Below are positions 1 to 5,016 of a DNA stretch of 64,000 nt, piece by piece. The position numbers and the translations under genes are program-made. Source of the DNA: the human T2T-CHM13v2.0 reference genome, Homo sapiens; assembly GCF_009914755.1 (NCBI RefSeq), contig NC_060930.1. One strand, written 5' to 3'. Each line of letters starts with the position of its first letter. Position 1 is the first letter of the stretch. The notes below the pieces were generated by a model that was not told where the DNA came from, searched no databases, and saw nothing but the letters and a program-made list of their open reading frames with translations.

Positions 1-1021
1 ATTGGAGAAGCACTCATCATTTCCTTTGAATTGTGGTTCTTTCAGATAAAATGCTAGCTGACCATCTTGAGCTGTGCACTTTTTAAAATTTGACTCATAA
101 AGACTTCAGTATTTATCTCAAAAAGATAATAACTATAGTTAAATTTTATGTTTTTAGATAATTTTAAACTCACATGCAGTTGTAAAAATATAATACAGAA
201 AAAGTCCATATCCCATACCCCATACAATTGGAGAGATACTGGGATTTTTCCAGTATCTCTCCAACTGTAATGTCTGCCACTGTTACAGAACAATATCCCC
301 AGTCAGAATATTGACCTTGGTACAGTCAAAAGATAGAACATTTCCATCATCACAAAGATCCCTCATGTCACCGTTCTTTAGTCACACCCCCTTACATGCT
401 ACCTATCCTCTTTTTAACCTCTGATTTGTCCTTCATTTCTATAATTTGGTTATTTCTAAAATATTATAAAAATGGAATAATACAATGTATGTTTTATGTT
501 GCTTTTAACCAAGCAGTATAATTCTCTGAAGATACATTTGATTTTCTGTTTGCATAATTTTTACTCTTTTTCATTGCTGAGTAGTATTTCACAGCATTGA
601 TATACCATGGCTTATTTATATATTTACCCTTTGAAGGACATGGGTTAATATTAGTTTATGGTATTATGAATAAAACTGTTATGAATACTTGTGTGAAATA
701 TTTTTGTGAAGATAAGTTTTCATTCTACTGGGACAAATGCCTAGGAGTACATACAATTGCTGGGTTGTGTGGCTTTTGTATGTTAAATTATTTCCAGAGT
801 GACTATACCATTTTTTATTTTTACCAGCAATTATGAGTGATCCAGTTTCTCCACATCCATGCCAGCATTTGGTATTGCCACTATATTTTATTTTAGTCAC
901 TGTAATTTTGATTTATATTTCCCTAATGGCTAATGATGTTGAACCTCTTTTTATATGTTTGTTCACTATCTGTATATCTTTAGTGACATTTGTCTCCACT
1001 TTTTTTGTCTTAATTGGACAG

Positions 1022-1335
1022 TGATATGGCTTGGCTGTGTCCCCGCCCAAATATCATCTTGAATTGTAGTTCCCATAATCCCCATGTGTCATAGGAGGGA
1101 CTCAGTGGGAGGCAATTGAATCATAGGGGTGCTGGCATTATAAGGGGCTTTTCCCCTTTTGCTCGGCTCCCACTCTCTCTCCTGGGACCCTATGAAAAGC
1201 TGCCTTCCTCCGTGATTGTAAGTTTCCTGAGGCCTCCCCAGCCATGCAGAACTGTGAGTCAATTAAATCTCTTTTCTTTTTAAATTATCCAGTCTCTGGC
1301 ATTTCTTCATAGCAATGTCAGAATGGACTAACATA
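1022..1335 (+). mobile_element. THE1C/D-type MaLR solo LTR with an internal deletion
   Basis: Starts 'tgatatggcttggctgtgtcccc', ends 'gaatggactaacata'. Flanks gacag (1017-1021) and aacag (1336-1340) form a near-perfect 5-bp TSD. Confidence 0.9.
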
Positions 1336-1471
1336 AACAGTTTCCTTTTTATTTTACTATTGTATTTTGATTTACTATTGTGCTTGTGTTTTTAGGATAG
1401 ACACTAAACCTTTGTCAGATATATGGTTTGAAAATATTTCATCTCAGTCTGTCGCTTGTCATTATATCCCC

Positions 1472-1916
1472 TGTGATGGTTAATACTGAGTGTCAACTGG
1501 ATTGGATTGAAGGATACAAAGTATTGATGTTGTGTGTGTCTATGAGGGTGTTGCCAAAAGAGATTAACATTTGAGTCAGTGGGCTGGGGAAGGCAGATCC
1601 ACCCTTAATCTGGTGGGCACAATCTAATCAGCTGCCAGCAAATATAAAGCAGGCAGAAAAATGTGAGAAGGACAGATGGGCCTAACCTACCAGCCCACAT
1701 CTTTCTCCCGTGCTGGATGCCTCTTGCCCTAGAACATCCGACTGCAGGTTCTTCAGTTTTGGGTCTTCTCTCCTTGCTCGTCAGCATGCAGACAGCCTAT
1801 GTGGGACCTTGTGATCATGTAAGTTAATACTTAATAAACTATATATATATAGAGAGACAGAGAGAGAGAGAAAGAGAGAGTGTGTTTATTAGAGTTTATA
1901 TATATGCTTATTATAA

Positions 1917-1996
<80 letters not shown>

Positions 1997-2033
1997 CCTA
2001 TTAGTTCTGTTCCTCTAACAGAACTCTAATACA
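1472..2033 (+). mobile_element. MLT2A2-type (HERV-L) LTR serving as 5' LTR of a chimeric element
   Basis: Starts 'tgtgatggttaatactgagtgtcaact..gattggattgaaggatacaaagtattg', ends 'ctaataca'. AATAAA at ~1833 is followed by an expanded microsatellite. Confidence 0.92.
1840..1993. repeat. Compound (TA)n(GA)n microsatellite inside the MLT2A2 LTR
   Basis: Directly visible TA and GA runs, in two blocks. Confidence 0.97.
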
Positions 2034-3602
2034 GAAATTGGTAACAGTAGAGTGGGGCATTGCTGAAAAGATACCTGAAAATGTGAATGTGACTTTGGAA
2101 CTGGATAACAGCCAGAGGTTGGAACAGTTTGAAGGGCTTAGAAAAAGACAGGAAAATGTGGGAAAGTTTGGAACTTGCTAGAGAATCGTTGAATGGATTT
2201 ACCCAAAATGTTGACAGTGATATTGACAATAAAATTCAGATGGAGGTGATCTCAGATGGAGATGAGGAACTTGTTGGAAGCTGGAACAAAGGTGACTCTT
2301 GTCATGTTTTAGCAAAGAGACTGGCAGCATTTTGCCCCTGCCCTAGAGATTTGTAGAACTTTGAACTTGAGAGAGATTATTTAGGGTATCTGGCAGAAGA
2401 AATTTCTAAGCAGTGAAGCATTCAAGAGGTAACTTGGGTGCTGTTAAAGGCATTCAGTTTTATAAGAGAAGCAGAGCATAAGTGTTTGGAAAATTTGCAG
2501 CCTGACTATATGATAGAAAAGAAAAAACATTTTCTGGGGAGAAATTCAAGCTGGCTGCAGAAATTTGCATAAGTAGCAAGGAGCCTAATGTTAATCCCCA
2601 AGACCATGAATAAAATGTCTCCAGGTCACGTCAGAGAACTTCTTGGCAGCCCCTCCCATCACAGGCCCAGAGGTCCAGAAGGAAAATAATGGTTTTGTGG
2701 GCTGGGCCCCGGGTCCTCACACTGTGTGCAGTCTAGGGACTTGGTGCCCTATGTCCCAGTTGCTCCAGCTGTGGCTGAAAGGGGCCAGTGTACAGCTTAG
2801 GCTGTGGCTTCAGAGGGTGGGAGCACCATGCCTTGGCAGCTTCCACGTGGTATTGAGCATGTGGGTGCAAGGAAGTCAAGAATTGAGGTTTGAGAACCTC
2901 TGCCTAGATTTCAGAAGATGCACGGAAACACCTGGATGCCCATGCAGAAGTTTGATGCAGGGGTGGGGCCCTCATGGAGAACCTCTTCTAGGGCAGTGCA
3001 AAAGAGAAATTTGGGGTCGGAGCATCCACATAGAGTCCCTACTGGGGTGCTACCTAGTGGAACTGAGAAGAGGGCTACCCTCCTCCAGACCTCAGAATGG
3101 TAGATCCACCTACAGCTTGCACTGTGCACCTGGAAAAGCCACAGACACACAACACCAGCCCATCAAAGCAACCAGGAGGGCGACTGTACCCTGCAAAGCC
3201 ACAGGAGTGGATTTGCCCAAGACCATGGAAACCCACCTCTAACATCAGTGTGACCTGGATGTGAGACTAGGAGTCAAAGGAGATGATTTTGGCACTTTAA
3301 AATTTGACTGCCCTGCTGGATTTTGGACTTGCATAGGACCTTTAACCCCTTTGTTTTGGCCAATTTCTCCCATATGGAAAGGCTGTATTTACCCAATACC
3401 TGTACTGCACTAGGAAGTAACTAGCTTGCTTTTGATTTTACAGGCTCATAGGCAGAAGGAACTTGCCTTGTCTCAGATGAGACTTTGGACTGTGGACTTT
3501 CAGGTTAATGTTGAAATGAGTAAAGAATTTGGGGGACTGTTGGGAAGGCATGATTGGTTTTGAAATGTGAAGACATGAGATATGGAGGGGCCAGGGGCAG
3601 AA
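2034..3602 (+). mobile_element. THE1A internal region (THE1-int, ~1.57 kb)
   Basis: PBS-like 'tggtaacagtagagtgggg' at 2039. The degenerate MaLR internal ORF appears as 2129-2356 (…KMWESLEL…GDEELVGSWNKGDSC…KRLAAFCPCPRDL). Polypurine tract 'ggaggggccaggggcagaa' lies immediately before 3603. Confidence 0.93.
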
Positions 3603-3946
3603 TGATATGGTTTGGCTGTGTCCCCACTGAAATCTCAACCTGAATTGTATCTCCCAGGATTCCTATGTGATGTGGAGGGACCCAGGGGGAGGTAATTGAA
3701 TCATGGGAGCCAGTCTTTCCCATGCTATTCTTGTGATAGTGAATAAATCTCATGAGATTTGATGGTTTTGTCAGAGGTTTTCGCTTTTGTTTCTTCCCAT
3801 TTACTCTTGCCGCAACCATGTAAGAAGAGCCTTTCACCTCCTGCCATGATTCTGAGGCCTTGCCAGCCATGTGGAACTGTAAGTCCAGTTAAACCTTTTT
3901 TTTTGTTCTCAGTTTCAGGTATGTCTTTATCAGGAGTATGAAAACA
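3603..3946 (+). mobile_element. THE1A LTR (3' LTR of the chimeric element)
   Basis: 'tgatatggtttggctgtgtcccc…ctcaacctgaattgtatctccc…ttttcgcttttg…gattctgaggcc…ctgtaagtcca' match THE1A diagnostics as I recall them. The terminus is shortened to 'gaaaaca'. Confidence 0.9.
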
Positions 3947-5016
3947 TCCTCTTAAAAGTATATTCACGAGCAAATATTTGTAAATTTTATGAAGTCCAGT
4001 TTTTTATTTCTCTTTTTATGGATTATGCTTTAAATATCAAGTCCTGATAACTTTTTATATTGTCCTAGGCCCAGAGGACTTTGTTCTGTATTCTTTTTCC
4101 AAAAGTCTTATTTAAAGTCCAAGATCTATTTTTAGTTAAATTTTATTTAAGGCATGAAATTCAGGTCAACATACTTTGTCTTTCTACTTGTGTTGAATTA
4201 CTCCTATACTATTTAATGAAAAGGCTATTGTTTTGTACCTTTGTCAATAATAGGCAAATTTGCATACTTATATGATTTTTCATTGATCTGTATCTCTAAC
4301 CCTCTACTGATACCACATAGTTTTGAGTATTGCAGCTATATAATGGCTTTTCAAAATTATTTAACTATTCTAGCTCCTTTGCCTTCCCATATAAATTACA
4401 GAATATCTTGTTTATATATATAAAATCATCTTACTGGAATGTTGATAGAAATTGCATTGACCTGCATATCATTTGGGGTAGAACTGAGATCTTTACTATG
4501 GGTGACTCAATCTGTGAACATAATGTGTCTCTACCTTTATTTAGATCTTCAGTGTGTTTTTTTTTTCCTTTGGTAGCTTTCAGCATGAGTCCTATCCATG
4601 ATTTATTAGATTGACACACAGGTCTTTCATTTTTTGAGCAATTTTAAATGGTATTATATTTTTAATTCTGGTTCCCATAGGTTCATTGCTAGTATATATA
4701 AAAACATTTTATTTTTTCTCATTCTCTTATTTCCTGTGATCTTCCTGAACATCTAACAGGGAATGTCCATGTAGGTAATCGTGTTTTCTGTAAATAAGAA
4801 CAATTTTTTCCTTTCTGATTTAAATAACGTTTATTTCTTTTTCTTGTCTTTTTGCACTTGCTAGAACTTACAATATTACGTTAAGTAAGAGTGTTAAAAG
4901 CAGGCATCTTTGCATTGTTCCCATCTTAGGAAGAAAACATTCAGTTTTTTACAATTCAGTATAATGTTACCTACATAATTTTCAGATGCTCTTCATCAAT
5001 TAAAAAAGTTCCCTTC

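What the first reader, a model, noticed from the sequence alone, without database searches (positions are those of the whole stretch)
1472..3946. Provirus with two different LTRs (HERV-L MLT2A2 5' LTR + THE1A body and 3' LTR), joined exactly at the PBS and bounded by one TSD
Seen: a complete MLT2A2 LTR ends at 'ctaataca' (2033) and runs straight into THE1-int ('gaaat-tggtaacagtagagtgggg'), with no THE1 5' LTR sequence. The unit ends in a THE1A LTR. It is flanked by tcccc (1467-1471) and tcctc (3947-3951), and the host L1 reads through when the whole unit is removed. Established: normal reverse transcription gives identical LTRs, MaLRs lack pol and are thought to depend on ERV-L, and both start their internal region with a similar TGGTACCAG-type PBS. 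Inference: HERV-L and THE1A RNAs were co-packaged, and the HERV-L plus-strand strong-stop DNA jumped via the shared PBS onto a THE1A minus strand. This would be a molecular fossil of the helper-parasite relationship and of intermolecular second-strand transfer.
Basis: partly seen in the sequence, partly recalled or inferred. Interest (0 to 1): 0.85.

Follow-up and report, generated by a model that had tools for sequence, protein, structure and literature searches.

The report
Retroelement with two unlike LTRs
A fossil retroelement on human chromosome 6 carries a HERV-L LTR at its front and a THE1 body and LTR behind, went in as one piece, and is one of at least two dozen such hybrids, which points to the two elements having been copied together inside the same virus-like particle.

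Summary
Window 1472-3946 is an MLT2-type (HERV-L) LTR, a full THE1 internal region from its first base, and a THE1 LTR. It has one 5-bp target duplication (tcccc/tcctc). Four paralogous L1 copies read straight through the site with a 5-bp overlap.

It is not unique. Junction searches of the same genome found 24 such hybrids. Sixteen were checked end to end: all have MLT2 at 5', and the 13 whose 3' end lay in the fetched DNA have a MaLR LTR there. Ten of 12 evaluable copies have their own 5-bp duplication. The switch always lies between the LTR end and the primer binding site. Hybrid LTRs and bodies are scattered among ordinary copies in trees, and older LTR types pair with older bodies, so these are repeated independent events.

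One clean reciprocal (THE1/MST LTR, HERV-L leader, MLT2 LTR, own duplication) was found. A pattern search found no THE1 body followed by an MLT2 LTR.

Best reading: HERV-L and MaLR RNAs shared particles, and plus-strand strong-stop DNA crossed between two minus strands at the shared primer binding site.

Not done: subfamily names, primate orthologues and a full census. Nine literature searches found no description.

The parts
1467..1471 (.). Left copy of the 5-bp target-site duplication (tcccc)
   Evidence: Paralogous L1 copies carry this pentamer once.
1472..2033 (+). 5' LTR of HERV-L (MLT2) type, complete from TGTGATGG to CTAATACA
   Evidence: 39 other genomic copies at 87-89% identity over bases 1-359. 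In the tree it groups with ordinary MLT2 LTRs.
1918..1993 (.). (TA)17(AG)21 microsatellite grown inside the 5' LTR
   Evidence: A degenerate TA/GA tract also lies at about 1840-1880.
2034..2038 (+). Spacer GAAAT between the LTR end and the PBS. It has HERV-L length (5 nt) with THE1-like bases next to the PBS, so the crossover lies here.
2039..2057 (+). Primer binding site of THE1 type (with the 2-nt TA insertion)
   Evidence: That it matches tRNA-Leu is recalled, not tested.
2034..3603 (+). Full-length THE1 internal region, from its first to its last base
   Evidence: In the tree it falls in the youngest THE1 clade (support 100/99) among ordinary copies.
3585..3603 (+). Purine-rich tract at the end of the internal region (polypurine tract position)
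   Evidence: the same junction as in ordinary THE1 elements.
3604..3946 (+). 3' LTR of THE1 type, lacking 10 nt just inside its 3' end (between two ACA repeats)
   Evidence: 39 other copies at 86-89% identity.
3947..3951 (.). Right copy of the target-site duplication (tcctc)
1336..1471 (-). Host L1 (antisense), left of the insertion
3947..4260 (-). Host L1 (antisense), right of the insertion
   Evidence: (paralogues at 67-86% identity).

Best explanation
The unit 1472-3946 was made as one linear DNA with two unlike LTRs and integrated once, by an integrase that leaves a 5-bp duplication. It arose in a particle holding both a HERV-L RNA and a THE1 (MaLR) RNA. Each RNA was copied into its own minus strand. 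The plus-strand strong-stop DNA made on the HERV-L minus strand (whole MLT2 LTR, spacer, and a copy of the tRNA primer) then annealed through the shared primer binding site to the 3' end of the THE1 minus strand instead of its own. Extending both ends gives MLT2 LTR - PBS - THE1 body - THE1 LTR. The same accident happened at least two dozen times over a long period, each time between HERV-L and MaLR variants of matching type. Shown here: single integration, recurrence, independence of the events, the position of the crossover, the one-sidedness of the foreign LTR, and a reciprocal product. Inferred: co-packaging, the plus-strand transfer step itself, and reading the two junction types as the two strands of the transfer duplex.
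For: (1) Single integration. The TSD is tcccc/tcctc, and 4 of 6 paralogous L1 copies show the two flanks overlapping by 5 bp.
(2) Recurrence. Four junction queries gave 24 different loci where an MLT2 LTR end runs into THE1/MST internal sequence. Sixteen were fetched and mapped along their length. All have the MLT2 LTR 5' of the internal sequence from base 1-28. The 13 whose 3' end lay in the fetched DNA have a MaLR LTR there. The other 3 (CX, C15, C6b) ended before or inside it.
(3) Own TSDs. Of 12 copies with both ends readable, 4 match 5/5 and 6 match 4/5. The chance of 10 or more of 12 is about 6e-17.
(4) Crossover zone. Ordinary HERV-L has a 5-nt spacer in 21/21 copies, GATTT in 18. Ordinary THE1 has a 6-nt spacer in 50/50 copies, GTAAAT in 44. 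The hybrids have a 5-nt spacer in 22/24. HERV-L and THE1 share no other similarity, in body or in LTR.
(5) Two linked junction types. Spacers with T at -2 go with a PBS lacking the TA insertion (11 copies; 1 unclear). Spacers with another base at -2 go with the TA-type PBS (10 of 12). Fisher p = 6.7e-5. Within LTR clade A the split is 3/3 against 5/5, p = 0.018. This fits a transfer duplex whose two strands segregated.
(6) Independence. Pairwise identity among hybrids is 71-89%. Hybrid LTRs and bodies are interspersed with ordinary copies. LTR clade A hybrids fall 8/8 inside the THE1 body clade and clade B hybrids 7/7 outside it.
(7) Same age. The window's two LTRs are each 86-89% identical to their nearest genomic relatives.
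(8) Direction. A pattern for THE1 body end followed by MLT2 LTR start gave 4 hits, none real. The analogous ordinary pattern recovered about 10 of 17 junctions.
(9) Reciprocal. L099 is MaLR LTR - HERV-L leader - MLT2 LTR with TSD gatgt/aatgt.
(10) Background in print. Second-strand transfer is generally intramolecular but may be intermolecular in heterozygous HIV (PMC5651808, abstract). MLT2 and MaLR share a 5-bp TSD and target-site bias (PMC2836564, passages). HERV-L and THE1 were active in simian primates over overlapping times and are both switched on in cleavage-stage embryos (PMC11359688, passages).
Against: No step of reverse transcription is observed; it is inferred from products.
If the transfer duplex segregated 1:1 in every cycle, about half of ordinary THE1 copies should carry the PBS without the TA insertion. 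Only 2-3 of 20 in a sample chosen without regard to the PBS do. So the two-strand reading of the junction types is not secure. In the older hybrids the PBS without TA may simply be native.
Only one clean reciprocal was found. Its HERV-L part is only about 540 nt, and it was found with a pattern that demanded a 6-nt spacer. A second (L100) is complex and a third (L098) is of unclear family.
The reverse-arrangement test was a short pattern with about 50-60% sensitivity, not a census.
Eight of the 24 hybrids are known from the junction alone.
Two of 12 evaluable copies show no TSD at the canonical boundary (C11b; C3b only with 7 extra bases). A few boundaries needed judgement (C17, C1, C8b).
The window's own spacer GAAAT could also be the THE1 spacer with one base lost.
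No primate orthologue was examined.
Confidence: 0.7

Rival explanations
1. The hybrid DNA was made before integration in a shared particle or pre-integration complex, but by another route. One route: the THE1 minus strand, on running out of template a few bases past the PBS, switched onto the 5' end of the HERV-L genomic RNA and then made a second R-mediated jump. Another route: two finished linear cDNAs recombined at the short shared stretch.
For: This explains the single TSD, the recurrence and a crossover zone limited to the only shared sequence equally well. Crossovers 2, 4 or 6 nt upstream of the PBS look like a ragged minus-strand end.
Against: A switch onto HERV-L genomic RNA should carry the HERV-L form of the PBS (the form ending GTGGTTC, 21/21 ordinary copies). 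No hybrid has it. The hybrids with a HERV-L spacer have the other, TA-less form. This route also needs an extra jump to gain U3 and a defined left end. DNA-level joining would be expected to give more varied junctions.
Confidence: 0.2
2. Two separate insertions: an older MLT2 solo LTR, then a THE1 element landing beside it, followed by loss of the THE1 5' LTR.
For: Nested insertions of MaLR into ERVL are common (PMC2836564, Table 1 passage). MLT2 families are on the whole older than THE1.
Against: The left flank of the MLT2 LTR and the right flank of the THE1 LTR form one TSD in continuous L1. The MLT2 LTR has no TSD of its own. The same base-precise junction recurs at 24 loci. The two LTRs look equally old.
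Confidence: 0.02
3. Recombination or gene conversion after integration, between a THE1 element and a HERV-L provirus elsewhere in the genome.
For: Proviruses with unlike LTRs from ectopic recombination are known for other HERV groups (recalled, not checked here).
Against: Ectopic crossover gives unmatched flanks, whereas 10 of 12 hybrids have matching 5-bp flanks. Conversion needs homology on both sides, and there is none to the left of the LTR. The only shared stretch is about 25-30 nt.
Confidence: 0.03
4. A self-propagating hybrid family that keeps an MLT2 LTR in front and a THE1 LTR behind through each cycle.
For: There are many copies. The spacer GATAT, seen in 6 hybrids, occurs in none of 21 ordinary HERV-L or 50 ordinary THE1 junctions.
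Against: Standard reverse transcription makes both LTRs from one template, so such a structure cannot be inherited. Hybrids are polyphyletic in both trees and mix with ordinary copies. The GATAT copies belong to different LTR clades and different body lineages.
Confidence: 0.03

Closest known systems
Recombinant retroviruses from heterozygous particles, with intermolecular second (plus-strand) transfer (HIV-1 inter-group and inter-subtype recombinants; PMC5651808, abstract read)
   Same: Two different genomes share one particle, and LTR make-up is decided by which molecule receives each strand transfer.
   Different: There the partners are close relatives and the two LTRs still end up nearly alike. 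Here the partners share only about 25-30 nt, so the product has two wholly different LTRs and is a dead end.
Autonomous and non-autonomous LTR element pairs (ERV-L with MaLR; MusD with ETn, recalled)
   Same: A pol-less element depends on a coding relative. MaLR and MLT2 share the 5-bp TSD and target bias (PMC2836564, passages).
   Different: The ERV-L/MaLR link has rested on relatedness and shared hallmarks. These hybrids are physical products joining the two in one cDNA.
Hybrid LTR retrotransposons in yeast (Ty1/Ty2, recalled) and plants (chimeric TRIM elements and template switching; PMC13570524, passages read)
   Same: Reshuffling of LTRs and internal regions between families, attributed to template switching during reverse transcription.
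   Different: Those hybrids usually carry matched LTRs or extra LTRs and can found new lineages. Here the LTRs are unlike and the switch is confined to the PBS region.
Mosaic HERVs such as HARLEQUIN and the non-canonical chains of Vargiu et al. (PMC5753468 and PMC4724089, passages read)
   Same: Human ERV loci built from parts of different families.
   Different: Those are complex internal mosaics or secondary insertions. MaLR was explicitly left outside the scope of that survey, and no MLT2/THE1 hybrid is mentioned in the passages seen.

Membership tests
LTR retroelement integrated in one event | Ends TG...CA and a short direct duplication of the target | tested here: met
   TGTGATGG...AACA, with tcccc/tcctc. 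L1 paralogues show a 5-bp overlap.
LTR retroelement integrated in one event | PBS after the 5' LTR and a purine tract before the 3' LTR | tested here: met
LTR retroelement integrated in one event | Two LTRs of the same sequence at integration | tested here: not met
   No similarity between 1472-2033 and 3604-3946 beyond 8-nt words.
THE1 (MaLR) element | THE1 internal region and THE1 3' LTR | tested here: met
   78-90% identity to ordinary copies. Position in the tree..
THE1 (MaLR) element | THE1 5' LTR with the 6-nt spacer | tested here: not met
   The 5' LTR is of MLT2 type and the spacer is 5 nt.
HERV-L provirus | MLT2 LTRs on both sides of a HERV-L internal region | tested here: not met
   Only the 5' LTR is MLT2. 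The body has no similarity to the HERV-L internal sequence of L006.
Provirus rearranged after integration (ectopic recombination) | Flanking repeats that do not match | tested here: not met
   Flanks match here and in 10 of 12 hybrids.
Nested insertion | Each element has its own TSD | tested here: not met
   There is no TSD around the MLT2 LTR alone; it abuts THE1 base 1.
   No Dfam or Repbase library was at hand. The LTR belongs to the shorter of two MLT2 clades and the body to the youngest THE1 clade sampled.
PBS for tRNA-Leu | Complementarity to the 3' end of a leucine tRNA | not tested
   Recalled from the naming of HERV-L. No tRNA comparison was run.

The most novel reading that the evidence does not exclude
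The human genome holds a few dozen dead-end 'hetero-LTR' elements that are direct fossils of HERV-L and MaLR genomes copied in one particle. They identify which helper mobilised which MaLR subfamily and when. Their junctions preserve the two strands of the plus-strand transfer duplex of an extinct reverse transcriptase. One type carries the helper's spacer and the copy of the tRNA primer. The other carries the parasite's PBS and two bases of its spacer. Together these mark where the minus strand and the strong-stop DNA ended.
Probability: 0.35. Interest if true: 0.8.

Novelty: new variant of a known kind. Interest (0 to 1): 0.68.

Why it matters
MaLRs (THE1, MST, MLT1) make up several percent of the human genome yet encode no polymerase. 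That ERV-L moved them has rested on relatedness and shared hallmarks. Hybrids made in a single integration, with reciprocal products and matched-type partners, are physical evidence that the two were reverse-transcribed together. They also show that the second strand transfer, usually within one molecule, crossed between molecules often enough to leave dozens of fixed copies. They offer a countable record of that rate. In practice they warn annotators that an MLT2 LTR abutting THE1-int is one element, not two. They also place a HERV-L promoter in front of MaLR bodies at a few dozen loci.

Tried and rejected
A leftover THE1 5' LTR: the MaLR LTR at 1021-1335 looked like a candidate. It has its own TSD, lies in continuous L1 and is separated from the unit by 136 bp of L1, so it was rejected.
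Segmental duplication of one hybrid: rejected, because pairwise identity among hybrids is 71-89% and the flanks differ.
Shared packaging or body similarity between HERV-L and THE1: a sensitive BLAST found nothing beyond chance words.
An unbiased reciprocal search by DNA query was judged too weak (40 scored of about 1200 candidates) and was replaced by a spacer-length pattern.
The older key papers could not be opened: one PubMed id and one PMC id tried from memory for Smit 1993, and PMC104094 for Bénit 1999, are not held.
Literature searches that found no description of MLT2/THE1 hybrids. Passages were read in PMC5753468, PMC4724089, PMC2672092, PMC2836564, PMC13570524 and PMC11359688. No supplementary files were opened; the nested-insertion tables of PMC2836564 might list such pairs.
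Full report
THE OBSERVATION

An LTR of the HERV-L (MLT2) kind runs from TGTGATGG at 1472 to CTAATACA at 2033. It holds a (TA)17(AG)21 microsatellite at 1918-1993. Five bases follow (GAAAT), then a primer binding site (PBS) and a complete THE1 internal region, 2034-3603. A THE1 LTR occupies 3604-3946. No THE1 LTR sequence lies between 1472 and 2034. The flanks are tcccc and tcctc.

The host is an old antisense L1. I searched the genome with the right flank and fetched 300 nt around the matching point in six paralogous L1 copies. In four of them both flanks align. The left flank reaches about subject base 205 and the right flank starts at subject base 201. The two flanks therefore overlap by five bases, no host sequence is missing, and the paralogues carry the pentamer once. 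The other two copies matched only the right flank.

The MaLR LTR 136 bp upstream (1021-1335) is a separate solo LTR. It has its own duplication (gacag/aacag) in continuous L1. The 3' LTR lacks 10 nt just inside its end. The names MLT2A2 and THE1A could not be checked, because no repeat library was available.

IT IS NOT UNIQUE

The whole genome of the window could be searched. A 100-nt query across the junction returned four other loci where the alignment ran from the MLT2 side into the THE1 side. Three further junction queries, taken from other hybrids, raised the number to 24 different loci. Each search scores only 40 of thousands of candidates, so this is a lower bound. Overlaps between the lists give rough estimates of 21 to 36. 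In a list of 39 matches to a THE1 internal segment, chosen without regard to the LTR, one was a known hybrid.

Sixteen loci were fetched and mapped along their length. All have an MLT2-type LTR, then THE1/MST internal sequence starting at base 1-28. The 13 whose 3' end lay in the fetched DNA have a MaLR-type LTR there. Three others (CX, C15, C6b) ended before or inside the 3' LTR. One (C3b) has a large internal deletion, and one (C10) lacks the first 40 nt or so of its 5' LTR. Eight loci are known from 121 nt around the junction only.

EACH WENT IN AS ONE PIECE

For 12 hybrids both ends could be read. The five bases before the MLT2 LTR and the five after the MaLR LTR match 5/5 in four (C21, C8, C11a, C21b). 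They match 4/5 in six (window, C3, C2, C17, C8b, C1). C11b shows none. C3b shows a 4/5 match only if seven extra bases are counted with the LTR. With a chance of 0.016 per locus, ten or more of twelve has a probability near 6e-17. A few boundaries (C17, C1, C8b) needed judgement because the terminal bases are mutated.

WHERE THE SWITCH LIES

Ordinary HERV-L proviruses have a 5-nt spacer between the LTR end and the PBS in 21 of 21 junctions. It is GATTT in 18, and it is followed by a PBS form ending GTGGTTC. Ordinary THE1 elements have a 6-nt spacer in 50 of 50, and it is GTAAAT in 44. Most carry a PBS with a 2-nt TA insertion.

The hybrids have a 5-nt spacer in 22 of 24:
- GATTT or a one- or two-base variant in 12.
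- GATAT or a one-base variant in 9.
- GAAAT in the window.

Two have the THE1 spacer. Read from 5' to 3', every one is HERV-L first and THE1 after, with a single change-over somewhere between the last bases of the LTR and the end of the PBS. Outside this stretch of about 25-30 nt the two families share nothing detectable, in body or in LTR.

TWO LINKED JUNCTION TYPES

Spacers with T two bases before the PBS go with a PBS that lacks the TA insertion (11 hybrids; one unclear). Spacers with another base there go with the TA-type PBS (10 of 12). Fisher p = 6.7e-5. Within the younger LTR clade, whose ordinary THE1 relatives mostly have the TA-type PBS, the split is 3 of 3 against 5 of 5 (p = 0.018).

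None of the hybrids carries the HERV-L genomic PBS form. This is what a plus-strand transfer duplex would leave. One strand would be HERV-L LTR, HERV-L spacer and a copy of the tRNA primer. The other would be the THE1 PBS plus a couple of THE1 bases beyond it. Replication would then separate the two.

I hold this part loosely, for two reasons. In a sample of 20 ordinary THE1 junctions chosen without regard to the PBS, only 2-3 lack the TA insertion, fewer than a simple 1:1 split predicts. And in the older hybrids a TA-less PBS may be native.

INDEPENDENT EVENTS WITH MATCHED PARTNERS

No two hybrids are close copies. Pairwise identity is 71-89% for the LTR and 71-86% for the body.

In a tree of 16 hybrid 5' LTRs, six ordinary MLT2 LTRs and one reciprocal's 3' LTR, there are two well-supported clades (100/99). 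Within the clade that holds the window, hybrid and ordinary LTRs are mixed.

In a tree of 15 hybrid bodies and 17 ordinary ones, the hybrids sit in several different THE1 lineages next to ordinary copies. The window lies in the youngest clade (100/99). All 8 hybrids of LTR clade A fall inside the THE1 body clade (99/98), and all 7 of clade B fall outside it. By my own arithmetic the chance of this split is 1 in 6435. C3b was left out of the body tree because its body is under 900 nt.

The window's two LTRs are each 86-89% identical to their 39 nearest genomic relatives, as expected if they arrived together. A hybrid cannot pass on its structure by ordinary reverse transcription, because both LTRs of a new copy derive from one template. 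Repeated origin is therefore also what the mechanism requires.

DIRECTION AND THE RECIPROCAL

A pattern for the end of the THE1 body followed by the start of an MLT2 LTR, with up to three mismatches, gave four hits. One was an MLT2 LTR preceded by non-THE1 sequence, two were L1 3' ends and one was unrelated. The matching pattern for ordinary THE1 recovered about 10 of 17 junctions in hand. A handful of such elements could therefore have been missed, but not dozens.

For the reciprocal I searched for the HERV-L leader with a 6-nt spacer (22 hits, most of them ordinary copies shifted by one base). Three places had MaLR-type LTR ends in front of the HERV-L leader.
- L099 is clean: a full THE1/MST-type LTR, about 540 nt of HERV-L leader, an MLT2 LTR, and flanks gatgt/aatgt. 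Most of its HERV-L body is missing.
- L100 has the same front half but is followed by another PBS, and I could not resolve it.
- L098 is an inverted pair with an older kind of LTR.

All 40 best HERV-L junctions had MLT2 ends, but that list favours full matches.

MECHANISM

Shown: single integration, recurrence, independence, a crossover confined to the only shared sequence, the foreign LTR on the 5' side, and at least one reciprocal.

Inferred: the two RNAs were packaged together, both were copied into minus strands, and the HERV-L plus-strand strong-stop DNA annealed through the common PBS to the THE1 minus strand.

The main rival keeps the shared particle but switches the THE1 minus strand onto HERV-L genomic RNA, or joins two finished cDNAs. 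The absence of the HERV-L genomic PBS form in all 24 hybrids speaks against the first of these. Two insertions plus deletion, recombination after integration, and a self-propagating hybrid family are each contradicted by the results above.

WHAT IS KNOWN

In heterozygous HIV-1 particles the first transfer may be within or between molecules and the second is generally within. Database recombinants suggest the second can also be between molecules (PMC5651808, abstract). MaLR and MLT2 insertions share a 5-bp TSD and a flanking base bias, which the authors took as a hint of a shared mechanism (PMC2836564, passages). A review places HERV-L activity in simian primates until about 40-30 million years ago and THE1 expansion in simian primates. 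It reports both groups active in cleavage-stage embryos (PMC11359688, passages). Mosaic HERVs and plant hybrid elements are described (PMC5753468, PMC4724089, PMC13570524, passages).

Nine full-text searches found no account of MLT2/THE1 hybrids. The founding papers on MaLR and ERV-L were not available, and no supplementary tables were opened, so an earlier mention cannot be excluded.

VERDICT

It is widened from one curiosity to a recurrent class. I rate it a new variant of a known kind: recombination between co-packaged retroelement genomes is known, and here it leaves unlike LTRs and ties a helper to its parasite. A full annotation-based census and the primate orthologues are the decisive checks still to do.

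Noticed in passing
window 1021-1335: Solo MaLR (MST/THE1-like) LTR with an internal deletion and its own TSD gacag/aacag, inserted in the same old antisense L1, 136 bp upstream of the hybrid.
   Followed up: yes
window 3936-3946: The THE1 3' LTR lacks 10 nt just inside its end. The missing stretch sits between two ACA repeats, so slippage, or use of an internal CA at integration, would give the same sequence.
   Followed up: partly
L091 (chr3:18,184,770-18,187,770), 3' end near locus base 1168: In hybrid C3b the 3' LTR is followed by GTAAATA, the THE1 spacer, before a 4/5 TSD (ttcat/ttcac). It looks as if an unprocessed U5 end had been integrated. Single case.
   Followed up: no
L098 (chr1:216,550,170-216,551,170): Two copies of an older MaLR-like LTR end joined to a HERV-L-like leader (spacer GAGAAT), head to head about 900 bp apart, with an Alu between them. 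This is either an inverted duplication or an unrecognised family.
   Followed up: partly
L100 (chr2:179,555,800-179,565,300), bases 506-1900: MaLR LTR, 586 nt of HERV-L leader and a partial MLT2 LTR, followed by another spacer and PBS. A three-part arrangement that I could not resolve.
   Followed up: partly
L023 (chr8:114,820,000-114,829,000): Hybrid C8 and an ordinary THE1/MST element lie 3.2 kb apart in opposite orientation, and their internal regions are sisters in the tree (support 95/94). This suggests local conversion or the same burst.
   Followed up: no
L111 (chr2:195,872,011-195,872,101) and L126 (chr3:67,232,525-67,232,615): Ordinary THE1 elements whose PBS lacks the TA insertion typical of the family (2-3 of 20 in a sample chosen without regard to the PBS). 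They may be copies that inherited the tRNA-derived strand.
   Followed up: partly
chrX:154,070,237 and chrY:62,267,194: Two THE1 internal matches with identical scores on X and Y, probably the same pseudoautosomal locus. Only the X copy was used.
   Followed up: no
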